A stretch of 38,080 nt of DNA from Oscillospiraceae bacterium (GTDB taxonomy: Bacteria; Bacillota; Clostridia; Oscillospirales; Butyricicoccaceae). Below, piece after piece: positions 9,587 through 35,379 of the stretch (its first letter is position 1; each line of letters starts with the position of its first letter). Location: contig JAVBSJ010000008.1 in assembly GCA_031547105.1 (NCBI GenBank), positions 1 to 38,080 of the forward strand, in the 5' to 3' direction. The translations under genes were made by a program, and so were the position numbers. The notes below the pieces were generated by a model. That model saw only the letters and a program-made list of their open reading frames with translations. It was not told the origin of the DNA and did not search any database.

Positions 9587-10849
9587 CTAAAGCCAGTCTA
9601 TCTTTTGCTTTTCTTTCCTGGGTGTCTTGGAGAGGGCGGCGCCCTCCTTTATCTGGGCATACAGGCTTTTTGCCAAGTCGGCCTGAGCCTTTGATACGGC
9701 ATGTGAAGAATATCGCGCGGGGACATATATGTCCCGCAGGGCGGACAGAGGCGCCTCCGGCGCGCTTTTGGCAAAGGTTTTGAGGACTTGTGCGCTGTCC
9801 ATAACAGGGGTTATGCCGCCGGCTTTTTCGGCGAGGCTCAAATGCTTGCGGTAGTAATGGCGCACCGTTTCACGGTTTGTGCGGCGGGCAAAAAGACCGA
9901 GAGCGCTTTTCCCTTCGTCCCCGGGCAGGGCTTCACGGACGGAGATGAGTCCGGCGGGCTGGTCAAACCTGCGGTTTTTGCCCGCAAGGTATCTGAACAG
10001 ACATACCAACAGGAATACCACAAGTGCCGCCGCACAAAGAATAAGGGCTGCCGTCAGCCAGGCAGGCACGCCTGTGCCAATGATTTCTTCAAACTCAAAA
10101 TCACTGCCGTTGCCCATTATGCCGTTGCTTTCATCCGGTTTAGTGACGATTTCCCTGCCGAACAGCAGTGAAAACAGGCCGGAAAAAAGGGAGAAGAAGC
10201 GCAGCAGCAGGTAAATTGCCGACAGCATCACCGGCAGAATTATATTGCTGTAAACAAAGCCGACTGTGCCCGCCGTAAGCGCTAAAACCTGTGGGGAGGA
10301 CAGCACCAGCGCACCGGCGCAAAGGGCAGTCATCGTGAGAAGGTTGGCCAGCTTAAAAGCCCCTCCTTCAATTACGGCGCGGTCATGCCTGAGAGTCCTG
10401 AGCAGCGTTACGCCGCAGACGGCGCATACGGCGGCGGAGGGCAGGGTCAGCACCGACAGATACCGCGTGCCGATGCCGGCAAGGCTTATCAAGGCGGCTC
10501 CTAAAAGCGCCAGCAGCTGCATACGGAAAACATCAAAAAAGTCGCCGTCGTCAATAAGGTAGTACTCTTTTACGGTGACAAAGGCGGTGTAGCAAAAAGC
10601 GATGGCGATAAGCACACGGTCGGCGCCTGTTTTGGCGAAGAAAAGGGCGGCAGGGGCGGCAAGAAGAGGCGCAAGCCGCACAAAACGGGATTTCCTGCGC
10701 AGCATAAAGCAGGCTGTGCCGCACAATGCCAGAACAAGGGCGGCCGCCGGCATAAAGGAAACCTCGCTGAAAAAGGCGGCTGTCAGCCCTGCCACACATA
10801 GTATAAAGCAGCTGTCCAGAAACAGCTTTATAAAAATAACAAGGGACAT
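9587..10849 (-). CDS. Polytopic membrane protein with DUF4129-like C-terminal domain (third gene of MoxR operon)
   Basis: About 9-10 TM helices are followed by a soluble tail (RHYYRKHLSLAEKAGG...LRDIYVPARYS) resembling DUF4129, as found at the C-termini of TgpA-like proteins. The start is taken at ATG 10849, 1 nt after the DUF58 stop, because the ORF-track extension to 10924 overlaps DUF58. Confidence 0.6.
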   Translation of the reverse strand: MSLVIFIKLFLDSCFILCVAGLTAAFFSEVSFMPAAALVLALCGTACFMLRRKSRFVRLAPLLAAPAALFFAKTGADRVLIAIAFCYTAFVTVKEYYLIDDGDFFDVFRMQLLALLGAALISLAGIGTRYLSVLTLPSAAVCAVCGVTLLRTLRHDRAVIEGGAFKLANLLTMTALCAGALVLSSPQVLALTAGTVGFVYSNIILPVMLSAIYLLLRFFSLFSGLFSLLFGREIVTKPDESNGIMGNGSDFEFEEIIGTGVPAWLTAALILCAAALVVFLLVCLFRYLAGKNRRFDQPAGLISVREALPGDEGKSALGLFARRTNRETVRHYYRKHLSLAEKAGGITPVMDSAQVLKTFAKSAPEAPLSALRDIYVPARYSSHAVSKAQADLAKSLYAQIKEGAALSKTPRKEKQKIDWL

Positions 10850-10850
10850 A

Positions 10851-11933
10851 TCAGCTTTCCTCCTGCGCAGGGGCGATGGTGGCGGGATCCAGAAGCAGCA
10901 CCCGGGAGCCCTTGATATGCTCAAGCCGGGCGGCCTGCCTGCGGATTTCCTCTGTTATAGCGGGGGTTATCAGTATAAAGCTGCGCCCGGCCTCGCCCGA
11001 GCGCAGGCACTTTTCGGCAAGGGCGGAAAAGGGCAGGGTGCTGTCATAGGTGGCGCGGCCCAGCCCCTCCAAAATGGCCTTAAGATGGGTGGGACCCAAG
11101 CCCTCGCCTATCTGTGACCACAGCCCCATTGCCCCCGCCGACGTGGCGTTGGTGATTATGCTGTATTTTACCCGCTTTTCCTCCAGCAGCTCACAGACAG
11201 CGCGTGCAATTGAGAAGCAGGCCTCTATTTGCGTGTGCTTCGGGGGCTGCCCGCCGCTCTCCGCGACATTGAGAAGAAGGGTGACCGAGAGGTCAAGGGT
11301 ATGGTCATAGTTTTTCACTACGACCTTATTCATTTTTGCGCTTTGCGTCCAGGAAATAGCCCTTTGCGGCTCCCTGCCGGTATAGTCGCGGAAGCCAAGG
11401 GTGAGAATAGGATCCTCCATAATGAAGCGGTTGACCGAAATATCACCCAAGAAATCGCCAAGGGTGTCGCCGATAGCGGTGTTTTCATCACGCCTGGGCA
11501 GTATGACTATTTCACGGTTGGCGGGATAAAAGCCCGAGAGCTGGCTGATTCCGAGGAAGTCCCCACCGTACAGCGTTGCGCCCCGCAGAAAATAGCGCCC
11601 CCTTGCAGGCATGGAGGCCTTGAAGGTGCGTTTAAGCCTCTGCCGCGGCTTGAGGAAAACAGTCGAAACAAGGCGGCACTGCTCATTGTCCCGCCTGAGC
11701 ACCACATCTCCGACAGGCTGCAGATCGTGGGGCAGAGACTCCTGCATTCGGAGAAAGGAGACAGGCAGGCGGCGGTTATTGGCGAGCTCTGTAACCACCT
11801 CAAAAACCTCATCAGGGTCAAGGGTGGAAACGGAGGGATAGGTATCATATGTGATGCCGTCTAAAGCATGGCGCAGCGAATGCTGCTCAAGCAATATAAG
11901 CGCCAGCCCTAAAATTATAAAAAACCAAATCAT
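10851..11933 (-). CDS. DUF58 domain protein
   Basis: An N-terminal TM helix is followed by FRDYTGREPQRAISWTQSAK (the REY-x-GD...I-W...SA DUF58 motif) and LDLS. The ATG overlaps the MoxR stop (ATGA, 11930-11933). Confidence 0.8.
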   Translation of the reverse strand: MIWFFIILGLALILLEQHSLRHALDGITYDTYPSVSTLDPDEVFEVVTELANNRRLPVSFLRMQESLPHDLQPVGDVVLRRDNEQCRLVSTVFLKPRQRLKRTFKASMPARGRYFLRGATLYGGDFLGISQLSGFYPANREIVILPRRDENTAIGDTLGDFLGDISVNRFIMEDPILTLGFRDYTGREPQRAISWTQSAKMNKVVVKNYDHTLDLSVTLLLNVAESGGQPPKHTQIEACFSIARAVCELLEEKRVKYSIITNATSAGAMGLWSQIGEGLGPTHLKAILEGLGRATYDSTLPFSALAEKCLRSGEAGRSFILITPAITEEIRRQAARLEHIKGSRVLLLDPATIAPAQEES

Positions 11934-18722: not shown

Positions 18723-19637
18723 ATGATGAAAAATTTTTTGAGTATATTGCTAGTAGCAACATTGATGATGTCTACAGGTGTAACGGTATTGGCAGCAGAA
18801 TTTATTTCGGAAGCATCATATAAAAATGAAATTTCATATATGGCAAATGAAGAACTAGCGTCTGTAGAAGTCGAAACGCTATCTATTCAGCAGCAAGCTA
18901 TTTATAAGCAAGAAGTTATGAATAGGCTGGAAGGTGATGGCATTTTTATTATTGACGGAGTAGCGTATGACGGCCAAAATAACGTTATGGCTACTGGTGG
19001 AACAATAGGGCAGTATGTGACCGTGAACAGCGTAACCGCGTCAGGCAATGGATACAAAATCCGGTATACGGTAACGCAGAGTATGCCTATCTCTATTTCA
19101 CTTTGCTATCGTACAGCCCAAACAAGAGGGTATGGGGACTCCTTCATTACCATTCCCAAAACAGCAGGTACATACGAACATACTTTTGCTGTAGGCGGAC
19201 TTCTTTCTCAATGGAAAATTCAGTTCGAAGCAGACATATACGGATATTATGACAGCTTATTTGTGAAAACCGGATATGGTAGGCCTTCTAACAATGTAAG
19301 CACGACATATTATACAGTAACAGCCGCAGATGTCACGGCAAGAAATATAGCACTTACCGTATTAACTGTTGCGGGGGCGCTTAATTTTACGACTGTAGCA
19401 GGTGCAGCGGGAGCAAAGCTTATTGTTTATGCTATAACCGGAGTGAGTGTTATGACAATATGGGACCCTTTCCCAGCCCCTGTTAAAGATCAATATTTTG
19501 TTATATCTTATGCACTTAATGGTACGACTGGAGTATTGACTACAAGAATCCAAATGTGGAGTGACCGTCAGTCTTATAGCAATGGTATGCCAATAAAATA
19601 CGATAAGACACAGACAATGCAGATGCCGTCATTTTGA
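18723..19637 (+). CDS. Hypothetical secreted protein
   Basis: RBS AAGGAGAATAAAG. The signal peptide is MMKNFLSILLVATLMMSTGVTVLAAEF, and there is an internal hydrophobic Ala/Gly-rich segment near residue 210-240. The region is AT-rich and I recognise no family. Confidence 0.6.
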   Translation: MMKNFLSILLVATLMMSTGVTVLAAEFISEASYKNEISYMANEELASVEVETLSIQQQAIYKQEVMNRLEGDGIFIIDGVAYDGQNNVMATGGTIGQYVTVNSVTASGNGYKIRYTVTQSMPISISLCYRTAQTRGYGDSFITIPKTAGTYEHTFAVGGLLSQWKIQFEADIYGYYDSLFVKTGYGRPSNNVSTTYYTVTAADVTARNIALTVLTVAGALNFTTVAGAAGAKLIVYAITGVSVMTIWDPFPAPVKDQYFVISYALNGTTGVLTTRIQMWSDRQSYSNGMPIKYDKTQTMQMPSF

Positions 19638-20058: not shown

Positions 20059-21123
20059 ATGCCGGTGCAGGGAAAGCAAATAAAACAAAGAAACAGAAGT
20101 CTTCTGATTAAGGCTGCACTGCCGGCTTTATGTGTTGCCTTGATTGTCGCGGGGCTTAATCTGTGGGAGAGCTACAAAACCCGCGGTTTCTACAAATATT
20201 TTGCAGAGGCGGGGGTCAGCATGGGCGAGCGTGGCACAAATACAAGATTAGGCAACGTCTTAATTGGCGATACATACTACTATCACCCATCAAAAGGCAA
20301 AGGCATTTACGCCTATACTCCCGGTAGGGGCAACGCGCTCCTGTTGTCAGGAAAGAGGTGCGATTATTACTTTGCCGTTGAGTGTGGGCAGCTTTTCTAC
20401 ACATTTGAGGACAGGCTGTACGCGCTGGAGCTGACAAGCGGTGAGACAAGAGTAATTTTTGACTTTGCCGAACATAATCCGGCTTTGGAAAAAGCGGAAA
20501 TAGATGGTTTTGCAGAAGAAGGAGTTTTGCGGTTGTCCTGTTTTTTGGACAGTGAGCAGGTCTACACGGAGCTTGACTTAGTCACCGCAAAGCTTTCTAT
20601 GCTGCCTGAAACGCCGCTTGGCATCACTGCTTATATCGGCGCACAAAAAATTGAAGTGACTCAAGAGCCTGGCGGGGCAGGTGAGCTGCATATAGGCGGA
20701 CAGCCTGTACTGCCCAAAGGGGCAGTATTCAGTGTTGATTCCCTATATAACGCCACAGAACGTGCCTTTGTGGCGCTATACAAGGTTGGAGGAAAGGACT
20801 TCGGCCGCGTTTTCATGGACAACGGAACGGCGGTTGACCTGCCGGGAGAAGTCGCCTCGGCTTACAAAGTTCTTGCAATCTGCGGCGACCGCACAGTTAT
20901 CCTCGGGCAGGAGAGCAGCCTGTATGGATATGATACGGCCACAGGGAAAGTGACACAGCTTGCGCAGGCAGGCGCGGTAACCGCGGTGACCTGCAATGAA
21001 AAATGGCTGTATGCCTTTTGCCCGCCGAATGGGGGGAGCATAGCCTGCTACAAGGTCATTATGGATGAGCGAGGAGCAGTGACCACACTTGAGAAAGTGA
21101 AAAGCAAAATCCCCCAATCATAA
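20059..21123 (+). CDS. Membrane-anchored hypothetical protein, beta-propeller-like (DUF5050-like) ectodomain
   Basis: An N-terminal signal-anchor (ALPALCVALIVAGL) is followed by repeated Tyr-rich strands (DTYYYH..GIYAY, DYYFAV..LFYTF..LYALEL..TRVIF) reminiscent of DUF5050 blades. The family assignment is tentative. Confidence 0.55.
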   Translation: MPVQGKQIKQRNRSLLIKAALPALCVALIVAGLNLWESYKTRGFYKYFAEAGVSMGERGTNTRLGNVLIGDTYYYHPSKGKGIYAYTPGRGNALLLSGKRCDYYFAVECGQLFYTFEDRLYALELTSGETRVIFDFAEHNPALEKAEIDGFAEEGVLRLSCFLDSEQVYTELDLVTAKLSMLPETPLGITAYIGAQKIEVTQEPGGAGELHIGGQPVLPKGAVFSVDSLYNATERAFVALYKVGGKDFGRVFMDNGTAVDLPGEVASAYKVLAICGDRTVILGQESSLYGYDTATGKVTQLAQAGAVTAVTCNEKWLYAFCPPNGGSIACYKVIMDERGAVTTLEKVKSKIPQS

Positions 21124-25175: not shown

Positions 25176-25688
25176 TTAAGCCCTGCTATTTTCTTTGCGC
25201 TTAAACCGCTTTCTGCATTTGTTGAGAAAAGAGGCAACGCTATATAGGATAAAGCTTCGCCAATATATCATAAAGCAGAGCCTGAGGCCCCCGGTCCATA
25301 CCAATTTTACTAATTCCGATTTAAACAGCATCGGATAATTCGTTCTGCTAAAAGCTATTTCGAATACAATTTCTATGATTGAAACCGCTGCTGCCACCGC
25401 AAAAGAAGCACCTAAAAGCTCGACCCATGAAAGCAATTTGAAGAAAACAAGGCCAACTCCCAAAGCTGCGCAAAGCTTGATACAAAAGTCGATGGCTCTT
25501 GCAGTGTGGGCAAGAAGCTTCTTTGCTTTCAGCTTGCGCATACAGGTATCGTAGTCTGATCCACCCTCGCCAAACGTTTCCAGCAGCATTTTGTGGTCAT
25601 TGCAGACAGCGTAAATATACATAATCTGCAGCAGTGCAAATGTAATGACAAAGAATATCAGGAAGAGAACCTTAATCCTTTTGCGCAT
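25176..25688 (-). CDS. Hypothetical 4-TM membrane protein
   Basis: 170 aa starting from ATG 25688, which is preceded by AAGGAAGGAGGGAAT. The region is AT-rich. The ORF-track extension to 25763 lacks an RBS. Confidence 0.55.
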   Translation of the reverse strand: MRKRIKVLFLIFFVITFALLQIMYIYAVCNDHKMLLETFGEGGSDYDTCMRKLKAKKLLAHTARAIDFCIKLCAALGVGLVFFKLLSWVELLGASFAVAAAVSIIEIVFEIAFSRTNYPMLFKSELVKLVWTGGLRLCFMIYWRSFILYSVASFLNKCRKRFKRKENSRA

Positions 25689-25770
25689 ATTCCCTCCTTC
25701 CTTCAAGCCTTGGAATTGCTGAAGACGAATGGCAGCATCATAGAACGGGCTGCAGGATGCCATGCGTATG

Positions 25771-27525
25771 CTACCGAAGCTCCGGAAGGCTGCTTAAATA
25801 CGCGCCCGCCCAAAGAGTTTCCATATCCCTGGTAACTCTGTCAATTTCGTATTCCGCAATGTCTCCCCAAAGGCCAAAGGCGTTTGTGGCGCGGGGCAAG
25901 AGCCCGGATATTTTGTCCAGGAGCTTAGTATCCTCAATAAGCTTGGCGCGGCTCCCCTCGTGAGCCATGCAGGCATACACCGCGTTTGCCGCTCCAAGCA
26001 GGGGGACATCGCTATTGCTAATATACTGTTGGGCTAGCTCGTAAACAGTTTCTCCGGAGGGAACCTCTCCCAGCCAAAGTCTTATGGCAGCGAAAAGCGG
26101 CCGATACCCGGGATTCGCCTGTCTAAAGGCTGTTGCCTCTGCGCTTTTGGTATTTTCCAGATCACCGATTTTTTCCAATATACTTTCGGCAAACCCAGCC
26201 GGAAGGGGTCTGTTTTCATCCGCGTGTTGCAGCGCCATCAAAAGCAAAAGCGCACTATTTGGGCACTTGTCCATTGATGATAAAAAATATCTCCAGGCGC
26301 TCTCCCTCTGGCCTTCGATATCGGGCAAACCGCTTTCCGCGCGCAATATCGCAAAATGGGCGGGGAAAGCACTTGGATAGGGATTAAACCTCAGTTTGCC
26401 CTCTATTTCACGGTACTCGGTTTGGCCATCAATATAAGTGGTAATTTTCTCTTTCCAGTCAGGGTCGTCCATGTATTTAAGCGCCAAAAGGCCAAACAAG
26501 CTAGTATGGGGATTACCGCCCAAACTCATATCCGCGAAAGTGCCGTCGCTGCATTCATGAGCAATAAAAATATCCAGAGTTTTGGAAAAATCAAAGTCTA
26601 TATCAAGTATGCCGCATATTCTCGCGCAGAGATATATGGCTTGGGGGTCGCCGCCCCACATAATCGTGGAGAGCTGTATGATACCGGGAACCTGAGGATG
26701 CCGCAAACGCTCCAAATATGCTGAGACGCGCTCTTTGCCGTCTGCCGGAAACCAACCCATACGCTCTGCGATGTAGGCATAACTAAACAAAGTAACAAGA
26801 TCCAGTTTGCCTTTTTCCATATCAGCATAGATTGTCTCTTCGTAAGCGTCCCAATGGGCGGATAAAAAATCATTATTGAGTTCTATATTAAAGCCAAGCT
26901 CCTCCTCGAGCAGCATAAGAATATATAGCCTGCCGTAAAAATCGACGAAATTGCCCGTGTGTTGCAAAGACTTCTCCCAGCTGTCTTTTGCTGTGGACAG
27001 AGCGGTAGACAGTCCTTGCTTGTCATAGGACAGGCCGGCTGCCTCATAAACTGACGCCGAATAATATATCAGAAGGGGATCCGCGGGGTTGTCTTTGTCA
27101 AGGGCAGCCGCCAAATCTCTGTTATTTTTTAGGGCGGCAACAAAAGCCTTGGAGTTCTGCAAATATGCCTTAAACAGACCTGTAAAATAAAAGCAGTCCT
27201 CATATGACATAATGTCACCGGGCATTGGATTTTCACCAAAATATATATTTTCTTGCATATATTCTCTGGCGTAGTTGGGGAATATGATTTTGCAGGCCTC
27301 ATTCATATAATAAGTGGAATACAAGGAGGAAGACACGGGCGGCTTCCCAAACCCCCCATCCCAGCTGATTTGGGCATTTAACCTGTCAAGGGGAGATATT
27401 TCTTCGCTGTAGCTGGGGAAAACCCAGGATGATTTATCGGTGTATGTTGTGTTTTGCGCGCAGGAAGAAAACATAAGCGCCGTCAAAAGCAGACATATGA
27501 GCTTTAAAAAACTGCTTTTGCTCAT
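25771..27525 (-). CDS. Hypothetical lipoprotein, helical-repeat (alpha/alpha-toroid-like) architecture
   Basis: Starting from ATG 27525 the N-terminus is MSKSSFLKLICLLLTALMFSSC-AQ, a signal peptide ending in Cys. Motifs such as SDGTFADMSLGGNPHTSLFGLLAL recall prenyltransferase/terpene-cyclase-type repeats. The fold call is tentative. Confidence 0.55.
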   Translation of the reverse strand: MSKSSFLKLICLLLTALMFSSCAQNTTYTDKSSWVFPSYSEEISPLDRLNAQISWDGGFGKPPVSSSLYSTYYMNEACKIIFPNYAREYMQENIYFGENPMPGDIMSYEDCFYFTGLFKAYLQNSKAFVAALKNNRDLAAALDKDNPADPLLIYYSASVYEAAGLSYDKQGLSTALSTAKDSWEKSLQHTGNFVDFYGRLYILMLLEEELGFNIELNNDFLSAHWDAYEETIYADMEKGKLDLVTLFSYAYIAERMGWFPADGKERVSAYLERLRHPQVPGIIQLSTIMWGGDPQAIYLCARICGILDIDFDFSKTLDIFIAHECSDGTFADMSLGGNPHTSLFGLLALKYMDDPDWKEKITTYIDGQTEYREIEGKLRFNPYPSAFPAHFAILRAESGLPDIEGQRESAWRYFLSSMDKCPNSALLLLMALQHADENRPLPAGFAESILEKIGDLENTKSAEATAFRQANPGYRPLFAAIRLWLGEVPSGETVYELAQQYISNSDVPLLGAANAVYACMAHEGSRAKLIEDTKLLDKISGLLPRATNAFGLWGDIAEYEIDRVTRDMETLWAGAYLSSLPELR

Positions 27526-27605
27526 GTATCTAAGGTTGATGCCGAGTAGGGCAATAACAGGCAAACGGCAAGCGTAATAGGGAGGATCTTAAATAAGTTC
27601 TTCAT
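27522..27605 (-). CDS. 27-codon upstream micro-ORF encoding a signal-peptide-like peptide
   Basis: AAAGGAGAAGAAGT precedes the ATG, giving MKNLFKILPITLAVCLLLPYSASTLDT*. The stop overlaps the lipoprotein ATG as ATGA. Confidence 0.25.
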   Translation of the reverse strand: MKNLFKILPITLAVCLLLPYSASTLDT

Positions 27606-29145: not shown

Positions 29146-29382
29146 ATGGTTGTGATCGTTCTTTTTTCCATGCAAGCATGGCCGGGAGAAGAGGCGGCGA
29201 GAAGGCTTTATAAGGACGGCAGTAAGGATTACACTGATGATATTGGGCGCATTGTTGACCCTATGACGTTTATGCTGCCCGTTATACTAAGGGTGTTGGC
29301 CTTGGGGCTGATGGGAAGCTTCGCTGTATATATTATATTTAAGCGGCGTAGAGGCGCGAAAAAGGGTGCCGAATCAGAATAA
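29146..29382 (+). CDS. Small secreted/C-terminally anchored protein, start probably displaced by a 1-nt frameshift
   Basis: The 78-aa ORF has a hydrophobic N-terminus and a C-terminal TM helix followed by KRRRGAKK. A good RBS plus ATG sits at 29104-29120, but in another frame. See the findings for details. Confidence 0.45.
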   Translation: MVVIVLFSMQAWPGEEAARRLYKDGSKDYTDDIGRIVDPMTFMLPVILRVLALGLMGSFAVYIIFKRRRGAKKGAESE

Positions 29383-29383
29383 G

Positions 29384-29526
29384 TTTAATGGGGATTTAGA
29401 CGGCGATTGGATAGCAGATACCTTTAAAACGGAGTTGGATGGCGGGGCTTTTAACACCGACTTGGATGGAGACCGGATGGGCGGATTTTTAACGCGGATT
29501 TTGACGGTAGCCGGATGGCAGGCAGG
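29384..29526. repeat. Four degenerate tandem units TTTAA-N(4-7)-GAyTTrGAyGG
   Basis: The units start near 29384, 29423, 29450 and 29486. They lie in the convergent 3' intergenic region. Confidence 0.4.
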
Positions 29527-29534
29527 AAAAATAA

Positions 29535-29562
29535 AACAGGGCGGCAACTGCCGCCCTGTTTT
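29535..29562. terminator. Bidirectional terminator
   Basis: Stem AACAGGGCGGCA / TGCCGCCCTGTT, flanked by A-rich sequence on the 5' side and T-rich sequence on the 3' side. Confidence 0.75.
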
Positions 29563-29570
29563 CGTATTAT

Positions 29571-30140
29571 TTATTCCTTCGGTATCGGCCCTGCGGCAAG
29601 CATTTCTTCATGGTAGCGGACAATGATCGCCCGCGCCGCATTGTACAGGTTTTCATCGGTGGCCTGGTAGAGCGGAAAGGACATACTGTCATCACGCGGC
29701 TTATTTGGGCGGCTCACCATCATCTGCAGCTTTTCCGATCCCTCAGGATTTGCCTCATCTTCAAATGCCATTGAAAAGCGCACAGTTTTTTTATCATCCG
29801 GATCGCCTCTGCTGTCGTATATAGAAAATCCGTACCTGTTGTTATTGACGCCCAGCGGGATAGCGGCATAAGATATGGATTCTGATGTTTTCCGCAGGGA
29901 CTTGCAGAAGGCGTGGAGCACATCAATATCCTCTTGGTCGGTTATGGCAAGCTCATAAAATTGTTTCCCACTAGGGGTATAATAGCCTCCTATCCTGACG
30001 GCACAGCTTTCAGGGCTTGGCAGCCACAGCTTGTCCCTGTAATAGTACTGCCGCCCGAAAAAGATAAGAAGGACAAGGGCAATGGCTGCCAAGCCGTAGA
30101 GTATAAGCTTTTTGTTGGTTTTGCTAAGGTGTTTTGTCAT
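29571..30140 (-). CDS. Membrane-anchored hypothetical protein, paralogue A
   Basis: 189 aa with an N-terminal signal-anchor (LILYGLAAIALVLLIFF). It is homologous along its length to the next gene and has an identical 32-aa C-terminus. Confidence 0.65.
   Translation of the reverse strand: MTKHLSKTNKKLILYGLAAIALVLLIFFGRQYYYRDKLWLPSPESCAVRIGGYYTPSGKQFYELAITDQEDIDVLHAFCKSLRKTSESISYAAIPLGVNNNRYGFSIYDSRGDPDDKKTVRFSMAFEDEANPEGSEKLQMMVSRPNKPRDDSMSFPLYQATDENLYNAARAIIVRYHEEMLAAGPIPKE
29572..29666 (-). repeat. Near-identical 3' gene block, copy 1
   Basis: 29581-29666 is identical to 30181-30266 (86 nt), an offset of exactly 600 bp. Confidence 0.9.
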
Positions 30141-30170
30141 ATAAGTGTACCGTTTGATTGTGGTTTCAGG

Positions 30171-30701
30171 CTATTCCTTAGGTATCGGCCCTGCGGCAAG
30201 CATTTCTTCATGGTAGCGGACAATGATCGCCCGCGCCGCATTGTACAGGTTTTCATCGGTGGCCTGATAATACCAATACACAGGAAGAAGCCGTCGCCCC
30301 TGCGGTTCCGTGACACATACTTGAAGTTTTTCCGTCATTCCCGGTTCATTGTCAAGGCTCAATGAAATTGTAAACGACCCTCCATTATCAGTGTTGATTA
30401 AAACTGAATAGGTTACAGCTAGCCCACCATGAGGTATTTCAAAAGAAGTTTTAGTTAGCGACTTTGCAAAGGCATAAAGACTATCAATATCGTTCTGGTC
30501 GGTAATTTTCATCGAGTAGCTGGTTGGATAGGCCGACTCACCTCCATAGTAGAAGACGGTAAATGCACAGTTTTCCTCAGCGGGTAATTTCAACCTAAAG
30601 CCAAGTATATCAGACCCGGCAATAATCAATGCCAAGACAATGACGGCAGCCAGCCCGTAAAGGGTGCGCTTTATAAATGTTTTAACAAAGTATCTTGCCA
30701 T
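30171..30701 (-). CDS. Membrane-anchored hypothetical protein, paralogue B
   Basis: 176 aa with a signal-anchor (LYGLAAVIVLALIIAG). It lies 6 nt downstream of the peptidase stop. Confidence 0.65.
   Translation of the reverse strand: MARYFVKTFIKRTLYGLAAVIVLALIIAGSDILGFRLKLPAEENCAFTVFYYGGESAYPTSYSMKITDQNDIDSLYAFAKSLTKTSFEIPHGGLAVTYSVLINTDNGGSFTISLSLDNEPGMTEKLQVCVTEPQGRRLLPVYWYYQATDENLYNAARAIIVRYHEEMLAAGPIPKE
30172..30266 (-). repeat. Near-identical 3' gene block, copy 2
   Basis: See copy 1 (29572-29666). Confidence 0.9.
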
Positions 30702-30707
30702 ATTTTG

Positions 30708-31871
30708 TTAAAACATAACACATACAATGTAATATTCCTCATCGTAAGCATTAAGGTAAAAATATTCTTCATCGAATTCAACGTTGGTTGCGGCATTATT
30801 TCCTGTTGCAGGATCCATAAAATTTATTATGCCAACATTATCTGTGCTCTGATAATTATAGTATCCCCTAAGAACTATAGCGTGTCCAACAATTACTTCA
30901 TTAGGATCATCGCTGTCGTAAACGCCATCTCGAAATGTAGCCCCATACATCACATATCCAGCATATATCAAGCCGCAATAGTCGTAAAACGGCATACTGT
31001 CATTAAAATCATCTATGGTTCCACCAAATCCGATAATGTTGGGATATAATCCCCACAATGCTTCTCTTGCTGTATATGTATTGGCTCCCTGACTGTCTAT
31101 ATAAGGAAGGTTAAAATAGCTATAAACTTGGGATTCTGTTTTTACTAAGCCTGAATAATATTCTCCTATTGTGCGCACACAAGCAGCCCAGCAACTCCTG
31201 CTTTTCTGCTGCTGATATTGTGGAGTGTCGAGCGAGTACTGTACCGGTATTGTGGATGCGGAACTAGCAGAGCTTTGGCTGTAGCTTGCAGATTCTGACT
31301 GCTCAAGAGCAACAAGCTGCACTTGCTTTTCCATAGCGGTCTCCTCCAAGTTGAGGGCGGAGATGTTAATGCTTTCCGCAGATACCCTGCCGCTTGCAGA
31401 CACTTGCGTGCCGCTGTAGACCGTTTCCAATGCGCCTTCGCTTAAAACATACCCGCTGGTGTTGTCGAAAACAAGGGCGATTTGTGCGTTGTCCTCATAG
31501 TAGGGGGTAAGCTCGGCCACCAAATCGGTTCCGGCGGTGATGTGGACAAATCCGTTTTCTTTAACCAAAACCCTTGCCGTCAGAACAAGCCGGTCATCAT
31601 GTGTGAAAATCGGATAGTTTTCAACCTCAACGGGCTCAAGCCCATCCTCAAGAACCTCATACGCGGGGATAGGGGCACCGATGTAAAGGGAATCAAAGTC
31701 AGAAGGCTCCATATCAAAGGCCGTGGCATCGTACTCCAGGGCATAGAGAAAGCGCGCAATCTCTTCAAGCTTCTGGCTTTGTGAGACGGTGACCTTATCA
31801 AAATCGGCGGCAAAGACTGTGCCGGAAACCAGCATCATAGCGGCTACCATAATAGCTAAAACCTTTTTCAT
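30708..31871 (-). CDS. Secreted papain-fold cysteine peptidase with N-terminal pro/accessory domain
   Basis: RBS GAAAGGAG and signal peptide MKKVLAIMVAAMMLVSGTVFA. A Ser-rich linker (SESASYSQSSASSAS) precedes the C-terminal domain. That domain carries Q-x5-C in QQKSRSCWAAC, then VGHAIVLRGY, then FMDPATGNN, in the Gln/Cys/His/Asn order of papain-like (C39/C70-like) enzymes. The subfamily is not assignable by eye. Confidence 0.65.
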   Translation of the reverse strand: MKKVLAIMVAAMMLVSGTVFAADFDKVTVSQSQKLEEIARFLYALEYDATAFDMEPSDFDSLYIGAPIPAYEVLEDGLEPVEVENYPIFTHDDRLVLTARVLVKENGFVHITAGTDLVAELTPYYEDNAQIALVFDNTSGYVLSEGALETVYSGTQVSASGRVSAESINISALNLEETAMEKQVQLVALEQSESASYSQSSASSASTIPVQYSLDTPQYQQQKSRSCWAACVRTIGEYYSGLVKTESQVYSYFNLPYIDSQGANTYTAREALWGLYPNIIGFGGTIDDFNDSMPFYDYCGLIYAGYVMYGATFRDGVYDSDDPNEVIVGHAIVLRGYYNYQSTDNVGIINFMDPATGNNAATNVEFDEEYFYLNAYDEEYYIVCVMF

Positions 31872-32070
31872 TTTAAAGCTCCTTTCATAAACCTGCGGCG
31901 TTTACTTCCGGCGTTTCTATCGGGCATCCCCCTTTCTATAAAAGCATTATACTGCTTTTGGGCGCGATGCGCACCCTGAAACTATGCAGAATATATAAAT
32001 ATCAGAAAAATCACAGCTTAAAATTAGCCACTTACGCCAATTAAATATGCGTGTTTTGCCATAAACAAAA

Positions 32071-32099
32071 AAGCCCGGCGTGCAATGCACGCCGGGCTT
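32071..32099 (-). terminator. Intrinsic terminator downstream of hxlR-like gene
   Basis: 13-bp GC-rich stem AAGCCCGGCGTGC / GCACGCCGGGCTT, followed on the minus strand by TTTTTTG. Confidence 0.8.
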
Positions 32100-32114
32100 G
32101 TGGTCTGCTGAACG

Positions 32115-32498
32115 CTACGTTCTGCCGCGGTAATTACACCGCTGGCACACATGAGGGGTAAGCTCCGTTTCGGGCACAGTGTAGTTGTCCGACCATGCAC
32201 AAATTGCGCGCAATATAGGCAGCACGCTTTTGCCACGCTCTGTCAGCGAATATTCCACCTTGGGGGGGATCTCATTATACTGCACACGGTCAACAAGGCC
32301 GTCGCGCTGAAGCTCCTTAAGGCCGTTTGACAGCACCGCGTCGGTAATGTCGCACAGCTCCTTTCGCAGGGTATTGTAGCGCACCGGCTGCATGGTGGAA
32401 ATAACGCAGATCATCCGTGCCTTCCATTTGCCCCCGAACATGTCAATGCCGTACTCAATGGGGCAGCGAATATCCTTTTCCAGCTTAGGCTTATACAT
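32115..32498 (-). CDS. HxlR-family winged-helix transcriptional regulator
   Basis: CPIEYGIDMFGGKWK...LKELQRDGLVDRVQYNEIPPKVEYSLTERG is the canonical HxlR pattern. The gene is divergent from serpin 1. Confidence 0.88.
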   Translation of the reverse strand: MYKPKLEKDIRCPIEYGIDMFGGKWKARMICVISTMQPVRYNTLRKELCDITDAVLSNGLKELQRDGLVDRVQYNEIPPKVEYSLTERGKSVLPILRAICAWSDNYTVPETELTPHVCQRCNYRGRT

Positions 32499-32553
32499 AA
32501 AGATCCCCCTTACTATAAAAAAACCATATATATATTATTATTATAGCGTAATT

Positions 32554-32582
32554 TTGATAAAATGCAACAAGCCGGGTAAAAT
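32554..32582 (+). promoter_or_regulatory. SigA-type promoter candidate for serpin 1
   Basis: TTGATA, a 17-nt spacer, then TAAAAT, located in the hxlR-serpin divergent intergenic region. Confidence 0.5.
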
Positions 32583-32636
32583 AACCAAGGAACTTTTAGG
32601 GGGATTGTGCGTCTTAATATTCAAGAGGTGATCTTT

Positions 32637-33947
32637 ATGAAAAGGGTTTTGAAAATGATGTGCTTATTTGTGGCGGCTGCAACGCTGGCAGGCTGCGCCG
32701 GGACGAGCAGCGGCATAATAAGCATCGTGCCTGTGACCAAAAACGCCCTGATAGAGCCTAAGTACGGGGAGACCGACCAGGCATCGGTCAAGGCCGCCCA
32801 AGGCGCCAACGGCTTTGCATTGCGTTTGAGCGCCGCGCTCTCAGAGGCGCGGGAGAGCGATAATTTCCTTTGCTCACCCTATTCGGTTTGGCTGCCCCTT
32901 GCGGCGCTGCTTAACGCCACCAACGAGCAAAGCAGGCCTGCCTTGCTGGAGGCGCTTGGCGCCGCAGGGCTTACGGCGGAGGAGGTAAACAAAGCGGCCT
33001 CCCGCATGCTGTATGAGCTTACAAGGGAGCAGGTGGTTTACGATGAGAGTAAGCCAAACAAGGAGTACCGCTACACTCCGCTGAAAATTGCAAACGCCAT
33101 ATTTGTCGATAATACGGTAACCCTTAAAAAGTCCTTTGCGCAGGCCTTTGCCGATTATTATCTCGGCACCTCAGCCAACGTGGATTTTCAATCTCCCGAT
33201 GCCGTCAAAGCGGTAAATGACTGGGCAAGTGAGAATACCGGCGGCCTTATAAAGGATATTATTCAGGAGTTTGACCCCGATACCATAGCGGCTATCGCCA
33301 ACGCTATTTATTTTTCCGACACGTGGGCCGATAAGTTTAACCCCGACAAAACGGAAGAAGGGGCATTTAACAGCCCTTCGGGTGAAAGCAAGGCCGATTT
33401 TATGGTCAAGCAGGGGGATGGTATGCGCTATTATGCCGATGACAGTTTGCAAGCCGTCAGTCTCCGCTTTGCCTCCAATGCAAGTATGTTTATTCTGCTG
33501 CCGAAGGATGGGGACGCGGACGGCCTGCTGCAGTCGCTGACATCTGTGGATTTTGATTCCATCCGGCAGGGGATGACCAACTCAAGCGGGATGCTGAAGC
33601 TGCCTAAGTTCTCTATCGAGAGCGATGTAATCTCTCTGAAGGAGGCGTTGGTAGGCATGGGAGTGCCCCTTTTCGATAAGGAGGCGGCGCCTTTGAGCGG
33701 CGGTTTGCTGGAGGAGGATATAGGGGTTTACGCCTCACAGGCGGTGCAGAAGGCGGCCATCAAGGTTGATGAGGAGGGCACAACGGCCGCCGCTGTGACG
33801 GTGGTTATGATGAATCCCACCTCCATGCCTATACAAACAGAGCCCTTTGAAATGGTTTGTGACAAGCCGTTTGTGTTTATATTGTGCGGAAGCACCTATG
33901 ACGGAGGAGATCAGATACTTTTTACCGGTGTGGTAAACAAGCCGTAA
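32637..33947 (+). CDS. Serpin-family lipoprotein (serpin 1)
   Basis: The start is ATG 32637, 6 nt after GAGGTG. The lipobox is ATLAGC. The protein carries the serpin hinge EEGTTAAAVT and the C-terminal PFVFIL...FTGVVNKP. Confidence 0.88.
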   Translation: MKRVLKMMCLFVAAATLAGCAGTSSGIISIVPVTKNALIEPKYGETDQASVKAAQGANGFALRLSAALSEARESDNFLCSPYSVWLPLAALLNATNEQSRPALLEALGAAGLTAEEVNKAASRMLYELTREQVVYDESKPNKEYRYTPLKIANAIFVDNTVTLKKSFAQAFADYYLGTSANVDFQSPDAVKAVNDWASENTGGLIKDIIQEFDPDTIAAIANAIYFSDTWADKFNPDKTEEGAFNSPSGESKADFMVKQGDGMRYYADDSLQAVSLRFASNASMFILLPKDGDADGLLQSLTSVDFDSIRQGMTNSSGMLKLPKFSIESDVISLKEALVGMGVPLFDKEAAPLSGGLLEEDIGVYASQAVQKAAIKVDEEGTTAAAVTVVMMNPTSMPIQTEPFEMVCDKPFVFILCGSTYDGGDQILFTGVVNKP

Positions 33948-33955
33948 TTTCAAAA

Positions 33956-33988
33956 TCCCGAAAGCGCGGACGGATGGCGCTTTCGGGA
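33956..33988 (+). terminator. Intrinsic terminator between the two serpin genes
   Basis: 12-bp stem TCCCGAAAGCGC / GCGCTTTCGGGA followed by CTTTTGCCTTTTT. Confidence 0.75.
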
Positions 33989-34083
33989 CTTTTGCCTTTT
34001 TATGGCGTAAAGTGTGGTAAAATAAAAACAGAGGCCTATTGTACGCATTGTGGACATAGCGGATATGTAAAGGAGGTACATCT

Positions 34084-35379
34084 ATGAAAAGGCAGATTAG
34101 TATATTGTGCATGCTGGCAGCTGTTGCGCTGCTGGTCGGATGCGGTGGCATTGGCAGCGGGGTTATGAGCGTTGTGCCAGTAACAGAAAACCCACTTGTA
34201 AAGCCCGATTACGAAGTGGATGACCCTCAAGCGGAGCAGGCGGCACTGGGCGCCAACGACTTTGCGTTCCGGCTGAGCGCCGCACTGTCTCAACAGGAGC
34301 AAGGGGAGAACCTGATTTGCTCGCCTTATTCGGTTTGGCTGCCCCTTGCGGCGCTGCTTAACGCCACCAATGAACAAAGCAAACCGGCGCTGCTGGAGGC
34401 TATCGGCGCAGCAGGCCTTACAACGGAGGAGGTCAACCGCGCAGCCGCCCGGATGATGTATTTTCTCACGAAGGAGCAAGCCTTTGAGGGCAAGTTGCCC
34501 GGCAAGCAGGACTATTACACCCCGCTGAAAATCGCAAATGCCGTATTCGTCAGCCGTGAGGAGGTTTTACAGCAAAGCTTTGCCCAGACCTTCGCCGATT
34601 ACTACAAAGGAGCCTCCATCAATGTGGATTTCACCTCCCCTGACGCGGCAAAGGCGGTCAACAGGTGGGCAGCAGAAAATACCGAGGGGCTAATCAAGGA
34701 GATGGTAAATGAGTTTGACCCCAATACCGTGGCGGTAATTGCGAATGCAATGTATTTTTCAGACACGTGGCAGTGGAAGTTTGATCCCGAAAAGACAGAG
34801 GAAGGAGTTTTCCACGGAATAGCAGAGGACAGCAAAGCTGATTTTATGCTTAAGCAGGGAGACGGGATAACATATTATGAGGATGAGCGTCTGCAGGCCG
34901 TTTGCCTGCCTTTTGGCTCAGCTGCGCAAATGACGGTTTTGCTGCCTGTTAATGGAGACGGGGACGGGCTTCTTCAGGCTATGACGGCTGATTACTTTGC
35001 CCAGATACATGAGGAAGCGGATGGCTGCACAGGGAGGCTGCTGCTGCCGAAGTTTGAAATTGAAAGCGAGCTTATGCCGCTGTCCGATATCCTTATGGCT
35101 ATGGGTGTTCCTCTTTTTGAAGGTGCGCCGCTTACCGGCCTGATTGAAGCCGACATACCCGTTTGGCTGGATCAGGCGGTGCAGAAGGCGGCCATCAAGG
35201 TGGATGAGGAGGGCACAACGGCCGCCGCTGTGACCCTGATGGCGACACTGGGCGGATACCCCCGGCCATCTGAGCCCTTTGAAATGGTATGTGACAAGCC
35301 GTTTGTATTTATTTTAAGCAGCTACACTCAAGACGGAGGAGATCAGATACTTTTTACCGGTGTGGTAAACAAGCCGTAA
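34084..35379 (+). CDS. Serpin-family lipoprotein (serpin 2)
   Basis: RBS AAAGGAGGT and lipobox LLVGC. It has the same hinge and C-terminal motifs as serpin 1 but a different reactive-centre loop. Confidence 0.9.
   Translation: MKRQISILCMLAAVALLVGCGGIGSGVMSVVPVTENPLVKPDYEVDDPQAEQAALGANDFAFRLSAALSQQEQGENLICSPYSVWLPLAALLNATNEQSKPALLEAIGAAGLTTEEVNRAAARMMYFLTKEQAFEGKLPGKQDYYTPLKIANAVFVSREEVLQQSFAQTFADYYKGASINVDFTSPDAAKAVNRWAAENTEGLIKEMVNEFDPNTVAVIANAMYFSDTWQWKFDPEKTEEGVFHGIAEDSKADFMLKQGDGITYYEDERLQAVCLPFGSAAQMTVLLPVNGDGDGLLQAMTADYFAQIHEEADGCTGRLLLPKFEIESELMPLSDILMAMGVPLFEGAPLTGLIEADIPVWLDQAVQKAAIKVDEEGTTAAAVTLMATLGGYPRPSEPFEMVCDKPFVFILSSYTQDGGDQILFTGVVNKP

What the first reader, a model, noticed from the sequence alone, without database searches (positions are those of the whole stretch)
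29571..35379. Protease/inhibitor neighbourhood: secreted papain-fold peptidase, two anchored paralogues, HxlR regulator, two lipoprotein serpins
One minus-strand unit encodes a signal-peptide-bearing papain-fold cysteine peptidase (Q-x5-CWAAC ... GHAIV ... N) with a ~200-aa N-terminal domain. Two paralogous signal-anchored ~150-aa ectodomain proteins follow it, with gaps of 6 and 30 nt. Immediately upstream lie a divergent HxlR regulator and two separately terminated serpin lipoprotein genes. Established knowledge supports two analogies. Staphopain-type cysteine protease genes are co-transcribed with dedicated downstream inhibitor genes (staphostatins). Serpins are uncommon in bacteria, and some inhibit cysteine proteases across class. 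By inference, the two anchored paralogues could be cell-surface self-protection or inhibitor partners of the peptidase. The whole 6-kb block could then be a regulated extracellular proteolysis and anti-proteolysis module. I recognise no family for the paralogues, and this combination is not one I know as described.
Basis: partly seen in the sequence, partly recalled or inferred. Interest (0 to 1): 0.7.

Follow-up and report, generated by a model that had tools for sequence, protein, structure and literature searches.

The report
Secreted cysteine peptidase with anchored partners
A very rare but conserved bacterial operon encodes a secreted papain-type cysteine peptidase followed by one or two membrane-anchored proteins of an undescribed family that probably bind and restrain it; the neighbouring serpin and regulator genes are real, but the adjacency is not seen in any related locus examined.

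Summary
All six genes exist as described. On the minus strand lie a Sec-signal C39_2/C70-like cysteine peptidase (30708-31871) and two signal-anchored paralogues (30171-30701, 29571-30140; gaps of 6 and 30 nt, one terminator). Next to them lie an HxlR gene and two lipoprotein serpins.

The peptidase-paralogue link holds. Every relative of the peptidase I could find, four other lineages at 31-47% identity, is followed by one or two homologous anchored proteins. These are usually translationally coupled.

The partner family is tiny. An exhaustive search of 1.84 billion representatives found five clusters, and profile comparison linked one more distant subgroup. It has no Pfam, PDB or fold match. 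A moderate-confidence AlphaFold model (pLDDT 74) shows a TM helix plus an alpha+beta ectodomain, unlike staphostatins.

The "6-kb protease/anti-protease module" is not supported. Peptidase loci elsewhere lack serpins and HxlR, and six serpin loci lack the peptidase, partners and HxlR.

An inhibitor or immunity role for the partners is the best guess (about 0.4). A private foldase or tether is the main rival. Nothing tested here shows inhibition. The papain fold rests on Pfam hits and invariant Q221/C227/H330/D353, because the structure prediction failed.

This is a new variant of the known protease-plus-cognate-partner theme, of moderate interest.

The parts
31926..31951 (-). Putative promoter -10 box (TATAAT, 31946-31951) and an 18-nt leader element TTTTATAGAAAGGGGGAT (31926-31943) upstream of the peptidase operon
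   Evidence: Read. The 18-nt element occurs only twice in the window; the other copy lies just upstream of the hxlR start codon (0.08 matches expected by chance). Its function is unknown.
30708..31871 (-). Secreted two-domain cysteine peptidase. Signal peptide ~1-21 (VFA|AD), conserved N-terminal domain ~22-150, poorly conserved linker ~151-215 whose C-terminal part is Ser/Ala/Gln-rich, and a C39_2/C70-like catalytic domain ~216-387 with Q221, C227, H330 and D353
   Evidence: C70 21.7 bits, cut-off 19; 24.8 bits on the domain alone; invariant residues in 4 homologues; homologue P0014 passes both C39_2 and C70 cut-offs over the full profiles. A strong SD (AAAGGAG) lies 8 nt before the ATG.
30171..30701 (-). 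Partner/paralogue A: type-II signal-anchored protein with a ~140-aa extracytoplasmic alpha+beta domain, from an undescribed family
   Evidence: AF2 pLDDT 73.8; TM helix 2-32, then b-b-a-b-b-b-b-a. It starts 6 nt after the peptidase stop with no SD of its own, so translational coupling is likely.
29571..30140 (-). Partner/paralogue B: same family, 44% identical to A. The last 96 nt differ from those of A at only 2 positions
   Evidence: gene-conversion tract 29571-29666 versus 30171-30266.
29533..29562 (-). Intrinsic terminator closing the three-gene operon
   Evidence: 13-bp stem, 8 GC pairs, T-run.
32115..32498 (-). HxlR-family regulator with the N-terminal Cys-Pro typical of thiol-sensing members. 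It has its own terminator at 32071-32099. It is adjacent to the operon but not part of the conserved module
   Evidence: 7e-26; RrpA/RrpB-like, below cut-off. It is absent from the related peptidase loci and serpin loci.
32637..33947 (+). Lipoprotein serpin 1 with an inhibitory-type hinge (EEGTTAAAVT). Aligned P1-P1' is Thr-Ser. It is adjacent to the operon but not part of the conserved module
   Evidence: alignment to conserpin carrying the alpha1-antitrypsin loop. It has its own promoter-like site at 32554-32582.
34084..35379 (+). Lipoprotein serpin 2, 62% identical to serpin 1, with a different reactive-centre loop (…TLGGYPRPSE…). It is adjacent to the operon but not part of the conserved module
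   Evidence: It shares a GGTAAAATAA -10-like box with the serpin 1 upstream region.

Best explanation
The real unit is the three-gene minus-strand operon 29571-31871, not the 6-kb block. It encodes a Sec-secreted, zymogen-like clan-CA cysteine peptidase: an N-terminal ~130-aa domain, a flexible linker, and a ~170-aa C39_2/C70-like catalytic domain with Gln221/Cys227/His330/Asp353. It also encodes two translationally coupled, N-terminally membrane-anchored proteins whose ~140-aa domains face the outside of the cytoplasmic membrane. Shown here: the gene pair or triplet is conserved wherever the peptidase occurs, and the partners belong to a tiny, fast-evolving, undescribed family. Inferred: the partners bind their cognate peptidase where it emerges from the Sec translocon. 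Further inferred, and the least certain step: they act as tethered inhibitors or immunity proteins that protect the producer's own surface from the peptidase. This is staphostatin/Bfi logic moved to the outer face of the membrane. The substrate is unknown. It could be protein or cell-wall peptide, since C39_2 domains also occur in Gram-positive phage lysins. The two serpins and HxlR are separate transcription units whose adjacency is seen only in this organism.
For: Conserved synteny. P0004 (47% identity) is followed by a 174-aa anchored homologue with an ATGA overlap. In L010 a peptidase C-terminus is followed 1 nt later by P0005. P0014 (33%) is followed by 174-aa and 167-aa anchored paralogues with a 4-nt overlap, in four contigs. 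P0013 is followed by two copies. The distant downstream proteins are linked to the window family by hhalign at 89% probability, E=2e-6. An exhaustive HMM search found only 5 clusters of the family in 1.84 billion representatives. Features that favour immunity-type over housekeeping partners: the partners diverge faster than the enzyme in the same locus pairs (34 vs 47%, 23-25 vs 33%, 54-60 vs 66%); they occur as tandem duplicates with gene-conversion tracts; one family member is an orphan beside an IS110-like transposase; and the operon has atypically low GC3 both here and in L013. Topology: the peptidase has a signal peptide, and the partners have a basic N-terminus plus a long helix at residues 2-32. 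Precedent: the B. fragilis C10 protease Bfp1 is co-transcribed with two exported or lipid-anchored staphostatin-like genes (PMC2873492).
Against: There is no direct evidence of binding or inhibition. The partner model matches no inhibitor fold or sequence: Foldseek best E 0.05-0.09 with TM<=0.28, and no PDB sequence hits. The partners show no similarity to the peptidase's own N-domain, so they are not Spi-like. There is no charge complementarity; all the domains are acidic. A peptidase with its own N-terminal domain may not need a second inhibitor. The papain fold was not confirmed structurally. Only about five lineages exist, all on short metagenomic contigs.
Confidence: 0.4

Rival explanations
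1. The anchored proteins are private maturation or retention factors. They would be membrane-tethered steric chaperones or docks that fold, activate or hold the secreted peptidase at the cell surface. Analogues are the N-terminally anchored lipase-specific foldase Lif, encoded downstream of lipA, and the lipoprotein PrtM for lactococcal PrtP (both recalled from my own knowledge).
For: The architecture is the same as lipA-lif: a secreted enzyme followed by a signal-anchored partner in one operon, translationally coupled. The pairing is strictly conserved. The peptidase has no wall anchor of its own.
Against: Tandem duplicated partners, an orphan copy next to an IS element, and a partner kept beside a peptidase variant that lacks the catalytic His fit immunity better than a foldase. 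The peptidase already has an N-terminal domain that could serve as an intramolecular chaperone. No chaperone family is hit in Pfam or NCBIfam.
Confidence: 0.25
2. One reading: the whole 29571-35379 block is one regulated proteolysis/anti-proteolysis module. HxlR would control it, and the lipoprotein serpins would inhibit this cysteine peptidase across class.
For: The genes are physically adjacent. Both serpins keep an inhibitory hinge and are surface lipoproteins, so they share a compartment with the peptidase. An 18-nt element is shared between the hxlR 5' region and the peptidase leader. The same hxlR-peptidase arrangement recurs in a second assembly of the same organism.
Against: hxlR and each serpin have their own promoter-like sites, terminators or hairpins. 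Related peptidase operons lack serpins and HxlR. Six related serpin loci lack the peptidase, partners and HxlR within 10 kb. Tandem serpins occur elsewhere without the peptidase (L008). A similar AAAGGGGGAT box lies upstream of the L013 peptidase, where no hxlR is present, so the shared element need not be an HxlR operator.
Confidence: 0.08
3. The downstream proteins are substrates or functionally unrelated membrane proteins that merely share the transcript. Alternatively, the peptidase is a pseudo-enzyme scaffold.
For: No function is assignable from sequence or fold. One relative has Ala in place of the catalytic His.
Against: Adjacency and translational coupling persist while peptidase identity falls to ~31%. 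This argues for a specific partnership. Q/C/H/D are invariant in all four full-length homologues. No conserved cleavage-like motif, such as Gly-Gly, is found in the partners.
Confidence: 0.12

Closest known systems
Staphopain-staphostatin operons of Staphylococcus aureus (scpAB, sspBC; MEROPS C47/I57)
   Same: A secreted papain-fold cysteine protease with a long N-terminal pro-region and a small catalytic domain. A dedicated small protein is encoded immediately downstream in the same operon. The size parallel (~390-aa precursor, ~175-aa mature enzyme) is recalled from my own knowledge.
   Different: The peptidase hits C39_2/C70 in Pfam, not C47. Staphostatins are ~110-aa cytoplasmic beta-barrels. 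The partners here are 170-190 aa, signal-anchored, extracytoplasmic and predicted alpha+beta with two helices, with no sequence or fold similarity.
Bacteroides fragilis Bfp1 (C10) with Bfi1A/Bfi1B (PMC2873492)
   Same: A cysteine protease co-transcribed with two small putative inhibitor genes. Their products are predicted to be exported or membrane-tethered, giving surface-side self-protection.
   Different: The protease family differs (C10). Bfi proteins are staphostatin-like, 116-138 aa, with Sec or lipoprotein signals in a Gram-negative envelope. The partners here use an uncleaved N-terminal TM anchor, belong to an unrelated family, and both lie downstream.
SpeB-Spi of Streptococcus pyogenes
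   Same: A cysteine protease gene with an adjacent dedicated inhibitor gene.
   Different: Spi is a homologue of the SpeB propeptide. The partners here show no similarity to the peptidase's N-domain (hhalign probability 0.1%).
Papain-like cell-wall amidase effectors with exported immunity proteins (Tse1-Tsi1, Tae4-Tai4; PMC3391265, PMC3695027) and extracellular inhibitors of NlpC/P60 hydrolases (IseA; own knowledge)
   Same: A clan-CA-fold enzyme acts outside the cytoplasm, and a fast-evolving cognate protein in the same compartment is encoded next to it.
   Different: Those effectors are delivered by T6SS in Gram-negatives, whereas this peptidase has a Sec signal in a Clostridia-like genome. 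Peptidoglycan activity is unproven here. It is only suggested by C39_2 domains being listed among Gram-positive phage lysin catalytic domains (PMC8223927).
Lipase-specific foldase (Lif) operons
   Same: A secreted enzyme gene followed by a gene for an N-terminally membrane-anchored extracytoplasmic partner.
   Different: Lif proteins are ~340-aa all-helical chaperones for lipases. No homology was detected.
Bacterial serpins (miropin, tengpin, thermopin-type; Pfam PF00079)
   Same: Both window serpins are full-length serpins with an inhibitory hinge. PDB relatives include miropin and tengpin.
   Different: They are lipoprotein-anchored tandem paralogues with divergent reactive loops. No conserved link to the peptidase operon was found.

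Membership tests
Clan CA cysteine peptidases, Pfam Peptidase_C70 / Peptidase_C39_2 | Profile match at or above the curated cut-off | tested here: met
   Window protein: C70 21.7 bits (cut-off 19), or 24.8 bits on the domain alone, covering only profile positions 4-45. Homologue P0004: C70 24 bits over positions 8-131 of 141. P0014: C39_2 30.3 bits (cut-off 24) over positions 2-143 of 143, and C70 25.5 bits. The matches are weak but consistent across the family.
Clan CA cysteine peptidases, Pfam Peptidase_C70 / Peptidase_C39_2 | Oxyanion Gln, catalytic Cys, His and Asp/Asn in the canonical order | tested here: met
   Q221-x5-C227, H330 and D353 (FMDP) are invariant in 4 full-length homologues at 31-66% identity. 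The assignment of D353 rather than N363 is an inference.
Clan CA cysteine peptidases, Pfam Peptidase_C70 / Peptidase_C39_2 | Papain fold in a 3-D model | tested here: inconclusive
   AlphaFold2 with a 2-sequence alignment gave pLDDT 35.5. There were no PDB sequence hits.
Peptidase C39 sensu stricto (bacteriocin-processing) | N-terminal domain of an ABC exporter that cleaves Gly-Gly leaders | tested here: not met
   This is a stand-alone Sec-signal protein with no ABC transporter in the operon. The PF03412 match is only E=0.097.
Staphopain/staphostatin system | Downstream co-transcribed partner gene | tested here: met
   Gaps of 6 and 30 nt with a single terminator. The arrangement is conserved in relatives.
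Staphopain/staphostatin system | Partner is a ~110-aa cytoplasmic lipocalin-like beta-barrel (I57) | tested here: not met
   The partners have a TM anchor and a 140-aa ectodomain with two helices and six strands. Neither Foldseek nor HMM searches hit staphostatin.
Staphopain/staphostatin system | Partner inhibits the cognate protease | not testable with these tools
   This needs biochemistry or a confident complex model.
Spi-type (propeptide-like) inhibitors | Inhibitor homologous to the protease's own pro-region | tested here: not met
   hhalign of the N-domain profile against both partner profiles gave probability 0.1%.
Serpins (PF00079), inhibitory type | Full-length serpin profile match and an inhibitory hinge (P15 Gly, P14 Thr, P12-P10 Ala) | tested here: met
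   3e-79 and 6e-74 over profile positions 3-370 of 370. The hinge G-T-T-A-A-A-V-T is present in both.
Serpins as partners of this peptidase | Conserved co-occurrence with the peptidase operon | tested here: not met
HxlR-family regulators | HxlR winged-helix profile match | tested here: met
   PF01638, 7.2e-26, 90 bits.
Polymorphic toxin-immunity cassettes | Conserved N-terminal region with variable C-terminal toxin domains among relatives, plus a downstream immunity gene | tested here: not met
   All relatives share the same catalytic domain, and the N-domain is the more divergent part (23-54% identity). Only the compositional break (GC3 0.31 in the catalytic domain vs 0.56 in the N-domain) and one orphan partner resemble such systems.

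The most novel reading that the evidence does not exclude
The anchored proteins found a new family of membrane-tethered, extracytoplasmic protein inhibitors or immunity factors. They would be specific for a new subfamily of Sec-secreted C39_2/C70-like cysteine peptidases that act as surface- or cell-wall-directed antagonistic enzymes in anaerobic Firmicutes. The catalytic-domain-plus-partner segment would be exchanged by recombination; this reading draws on the low-GC3 segment that ends at the conserved 3' tract of the partner gene.
Probability: 0.3. Interest if true: 0.6.

Novelty: new variant of a known kind. Interest (0 to 1): 0.42.

Why it matters
If the partners are inhibitors, they would add a structurally new class of cysteine-peptidase inhibitor. 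They would also be an example of tethered, outside-the-membrane self-protection against a secreted clan-CA peptidase in what appears to be a Gram-positive (Clostridia-type) bacterium. That extends the staphostatin/Spi/Bfi theme. If they are foldases, they would be the first dedicated steric chaperones for this peptidase clan. Either way, the pair defines two uncharacterised protein families with a testable one-to-one relationship. The serpin pair is a separate example of the lipoprotein serpins found in gut and termite-gut Clostridia. The system is extremely rare, with about five lineages in over 15 billion proteins, so its ecological reach is small.

Tried and rejected
1. AlphaFold2 of the peptidase with the only alignment then available (2 sequences) gave pLDDT 35.5 and is unusable.
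2. Scanning GTDB representative genomes with the peptidase, and JGI metagenomes with the catalytic domain and the partner family, found no relatives. All relatives came from Logan, ENA or NCBI short contigs.
3. PDB sequence searches with profiles of the peptidase, its N-domain and both partner subfamilies gave nothing meaningful.
4. Foldseek of the partner model against PDB and BFVD gave only noise-level PH-like or lipocalin-like hits. I do not count these as support for a staphostatin-like barrel.
5. A Spi-like origin, with the partner derived from the pro-region, was rejected.
6. PHROGs and NCBIfam gave no family for the peptidase or partners.
7. A test for charge complementarity between enzyme and partners found none.
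8. A conserved 5'-leader RNA structure across four loci was not found, and Rfam found nothing on the whole window.
9. A 19-codon upstream ORF that overlaps the peptidase start (31868-31927) is probably chance. Its ATG abuts the SD-like box, and it is not conserved in the other loci.
10. The apparent hits of the partner profile to long repeat proteins (P0007-P0011) are compositional false positives on TDGNFYGTT-type repeats.

Full report
OBSERVATION

- The minus strand carries, in order, hxlR (32115-32498), a 387-aa protein (30708-31871), a 176-aa protein (30171-30701) and a 189-aa protein (29571-30140).
- The plus strand carries two serpin genes (32637-33947 and 34084-35379).
- Pfam confirms HxlR (7e-26) and both serpins (3e-79 and 6e-74, full-length).
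- The serpins are 62% identical. Both have lipoboxes (LAGC, LVGC) and the inhibitory hinge GTTAAAVT.
- Aligned to a serpin carrying the alpha1-antitrypsin loop, serpin 1 has Thr-Ser at P1-P1'. Serpin 2 has a different loop.
- The two small proteins are 44% identical (E=4e-42).
- The gaps are 6 and 30 nt.
- Strong terminators follow hxlR and the last small gene.

One correction on orientation: hxlR is co-directional with the peptidase gene and has its own terminator. It is divergent only from serpin 1.

THE PEPTIDASE

The window protein passes the Pfam Peptidase_C70 cut-off only weakly, and only around the catalytic Cys (21.7-24.8 bits against a cut-off of 19). Word-indexed and profile searches of 5.8 billion proteins found only three relatives: P0004 (47% identical), P0013 and P0014 (31-33%).
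- P0004 matches C70 across positions 8-131 of 141.
- P0014 passes both the C39_2 cut-off (30.3 bits against 24, whole profile) and the C70 cut-off.
- In the four-way alignment Q221, C227 (within SCWAAC), H330 (GHA) and D353 (FMDPATG) are invariant. So are several N-domain motifs (LY.G.PIPAY, YYP, FD..GY).

The architecture is a signal peptide, a conserved ~130-aa N-domain, a poorly conserved linker whose C-terminal part is Ser/Ala/Gln-rich, and a ~170-aa catalytic domain. This is zymogen-like. The N-domain matches nothing in Pfam or PDB. Structure prediction with two sequences failed (pLDDT 35.5). The papain fold therefore rests on profile matches and the conserved catalytic residues, not on a model.

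THE PARTNERS

An exhaustive HMM search of 1.84 billion cluster representatives, using the ectodomain profile, found only five true clusters: the two window proteins, P0005, P0006 and P0012. All are 173-189 aa with an N-terminal anchor. They share the motifs ITDQ..(D/E)…F.KSLRK and DE(E/N)LYNAA..IV.R. The remaining hits are repeat-protein artefacts.

No Pfam, NCBIfam, PHROG or PDB family matches the partners. AlphaFold2 with the five-sequence alignment gave a moderately confident model (pLDDT 73.8, pTM 0.68). It shows a TM helix at residues 2-32, followed by b-b-a-b-b-b-b-a. Foldseek found nothing significant in PDB or BFVD. This is not the staphostatin barrel.

Peptidase lineages:
- P0004 is followed, with an ATGA overlap, by P0006.
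- P0005 is preceded at 1 nt by the C-terminus of a peptidase homologue.
- P0014 is followed by two anchored paralogues (174 and 167 aa, 4-nt overlap) in four contigs.
- P0013 is followed by two copies, one of them truncated.

These more distant downstream proteins align to the window family in register: anchor, L.LP..C.F, (I/V)TD…F…A. hhalign gives 89% probability, E=2e-6. So all five peptidase lineages carry one or two partners.

Only P0012 lacks an upstream peptidase. It sits beside an IS110-like transposase on a 1.8-kb contig.

The downstream genes in the window lack their own Shine-Dalgarno sequences, so translational coupling is likely.

THE SERPINS AND HxlR ARE NOT PART OF THE CONSERVED UNIT

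The P0014 operon lies between nrdR and secDF, with no serpin or HxlR. Six GTDB loci encode serpins 42-51% identical to the window pair. They come from termite-gut and other Clostridia MAGs, and some carry tandem serpins. None contains a relative of the peptidase, partners or HxlR within 10 kb. Each serpin gene has its own promoter-like box, and serpin 1 a hairpin plus T-run.

The one hint of a local link is an 18-nt element, TTTTATAG(A/T)AAGGGGGAT. It is found only upstream of hxlR and in the peptidase leader. However, a similar AAAGGGGGAT box precedes the L013 peptidase, where no hxlR exists, and no conserved RNA structure was found.

EVOLUTIONARY FEATURES

- The partners diverge faster than the enzyme in every locus pair.
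- The last 96 nt of the two window partners differ at only two positions and then diverge abruptly. This is a gene-conversion or recombination tract. The L013 paralogues show an 84%-identical 5' tract.
- GC3 is 0.31 in the catalytic-domain segment and 0.41 in most of partner A. It is 0.56-0.60 in the N-domain, the linker, partner B and the converted 3' tract, and 0.63-0.75 in housekeeping genes.
- The L013 operon is likewise GC3-poor relative to its flanks.
- One relative (L010) has Ala in place of the catalytic His. It comes from the same sample that also contains the exact window peptidase.

MECHANISM

What is shown is a conserved, translationally coupled pairing of a secreted clan-CA peptidase with extracytoplasmic, membrane-tethered proteins. 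I infer physical association at the outer face of the membrane.

My preferred reading (about 0.4) is tethered inhibition or immunity. The support is:
- the precedents of staphostatins, Spi and especially the exported or lipid-anchored Bfi1A/Bfi1B pair of B. fragilis Bfp1 (PMC2873492);
- the duplication, rapid divergence and orphan copy of the partners.

The main rival (about 0.25) is a private foldase or tether, as in lipA-lif. A serpin-centred module is unlikely (about 0.08). The substrate is unknown. C39_2 domains are listed among Gram-positive phage lysin catalytic domains (PMC8223927), so a cell-wall target is possible.

VERDICT

This is a new variant of a known theme that involves two undescribed protein families. 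It is of moderate interest, limited by extreme rarity and the absence of functional evidence.

Noticed in passing
window 31926-31943 (-) and 32503-32520 (-): An 18-nt element TTTTATAG(A/T)AAGGGGGAT occurs only twice in the window: just before the hxlR start codon and about 55 nt upstream of the peptidase start. About 0.08 matches are expected by chance. A similar AAAGGGGGAT box lies about 65 nt upstream of the L013 peptidase. It could be an operator, a standby SD or a leader element.
   Followed up: partly
window 29571-29666 vs 30171-30266: The 3' ends of the two paralogues differ at only 2 of 96 nt, with no synonymous differences over 29 codons, next to highly diverged sequence. This is a gene-conversion or recombination tract. 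It covers the most conserved C-terminal helix of the family.
   Followed up: yes
window 30300-31250: There is a compositional break inside the peptidase gene. The catalytic domain has GC3 0.31 and most of paralogue A 0.41, against 0.56-0.60 for the N-domain, linker and paralogue B, and 0.63-0.75 for housekeeping genes. This suggests recombinational replacement of a catalytic-domain-plus-partner segment.
   Followed up: partly
L010 3-281: A related peptidase C-terminus has GAAIVLRGYY where all others have GHAIVLRGYY, so the catalytic His is replaced by Ala. An intact partner gene still follows it. It comes from the same run (SRR23967709) that also contains the exact window peptidase (L019). It could be a pseudo-enzyme or an assembly error.
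   Followed up: no
L011 163-1114: The most divergent partner-family member (P0012) has no peptidase upstream. It abuts an IS110-like transposase gene on the opposite strand, which makes it an 'orphan' copy.
   Followed up: partly
window 31868-31927 (-): A 19-codon upstream ORF (MPDRNAGSKRRRFMKGALK) ends in an ATGA overlap with the peptidase start codon. Its ATG directly abuts the SD-like box and it is not conserved in the other loci, so it is probably not translated.
   Followed up: partly
window 25771-27564 (-), 25176-25763 (-), 18723-19637 (+), 20059-21123 (+), 9587-10924 (-): Several sizeable ORFs have no Pfam family. They include a 597-aa protein with an N-terminal hydrophobic segment ending in SSCAQ (possibly a lipoprotein) and a low-GC 304-aa ORF (GC 0.40, GC3 0.33). 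The rest of the window is ordinary chromosome of an anaerobic Firmicute-like organism: FtsK, a Clp ATPase, PFOR and infC-rpmI-rplT.
   Followed up: no
window 29383-29530: The non-coding stretch between the small TM ORF (29146-29382) and the operon terminator contains about five spaced copies of a (T/C)(T/G)GGAT(G/A)G motif. In one frame it reads as DLDGD-type repeats. Tandem Repeats Finder and Rfam report nothing there.
   Followed up: partly
L008 5-2777: A related Clostridia MAG carries two to three tandem serpin genes. Serpin duplication is therefore recurrent in this group and independent of the peptidase operon.
   Followed up: no
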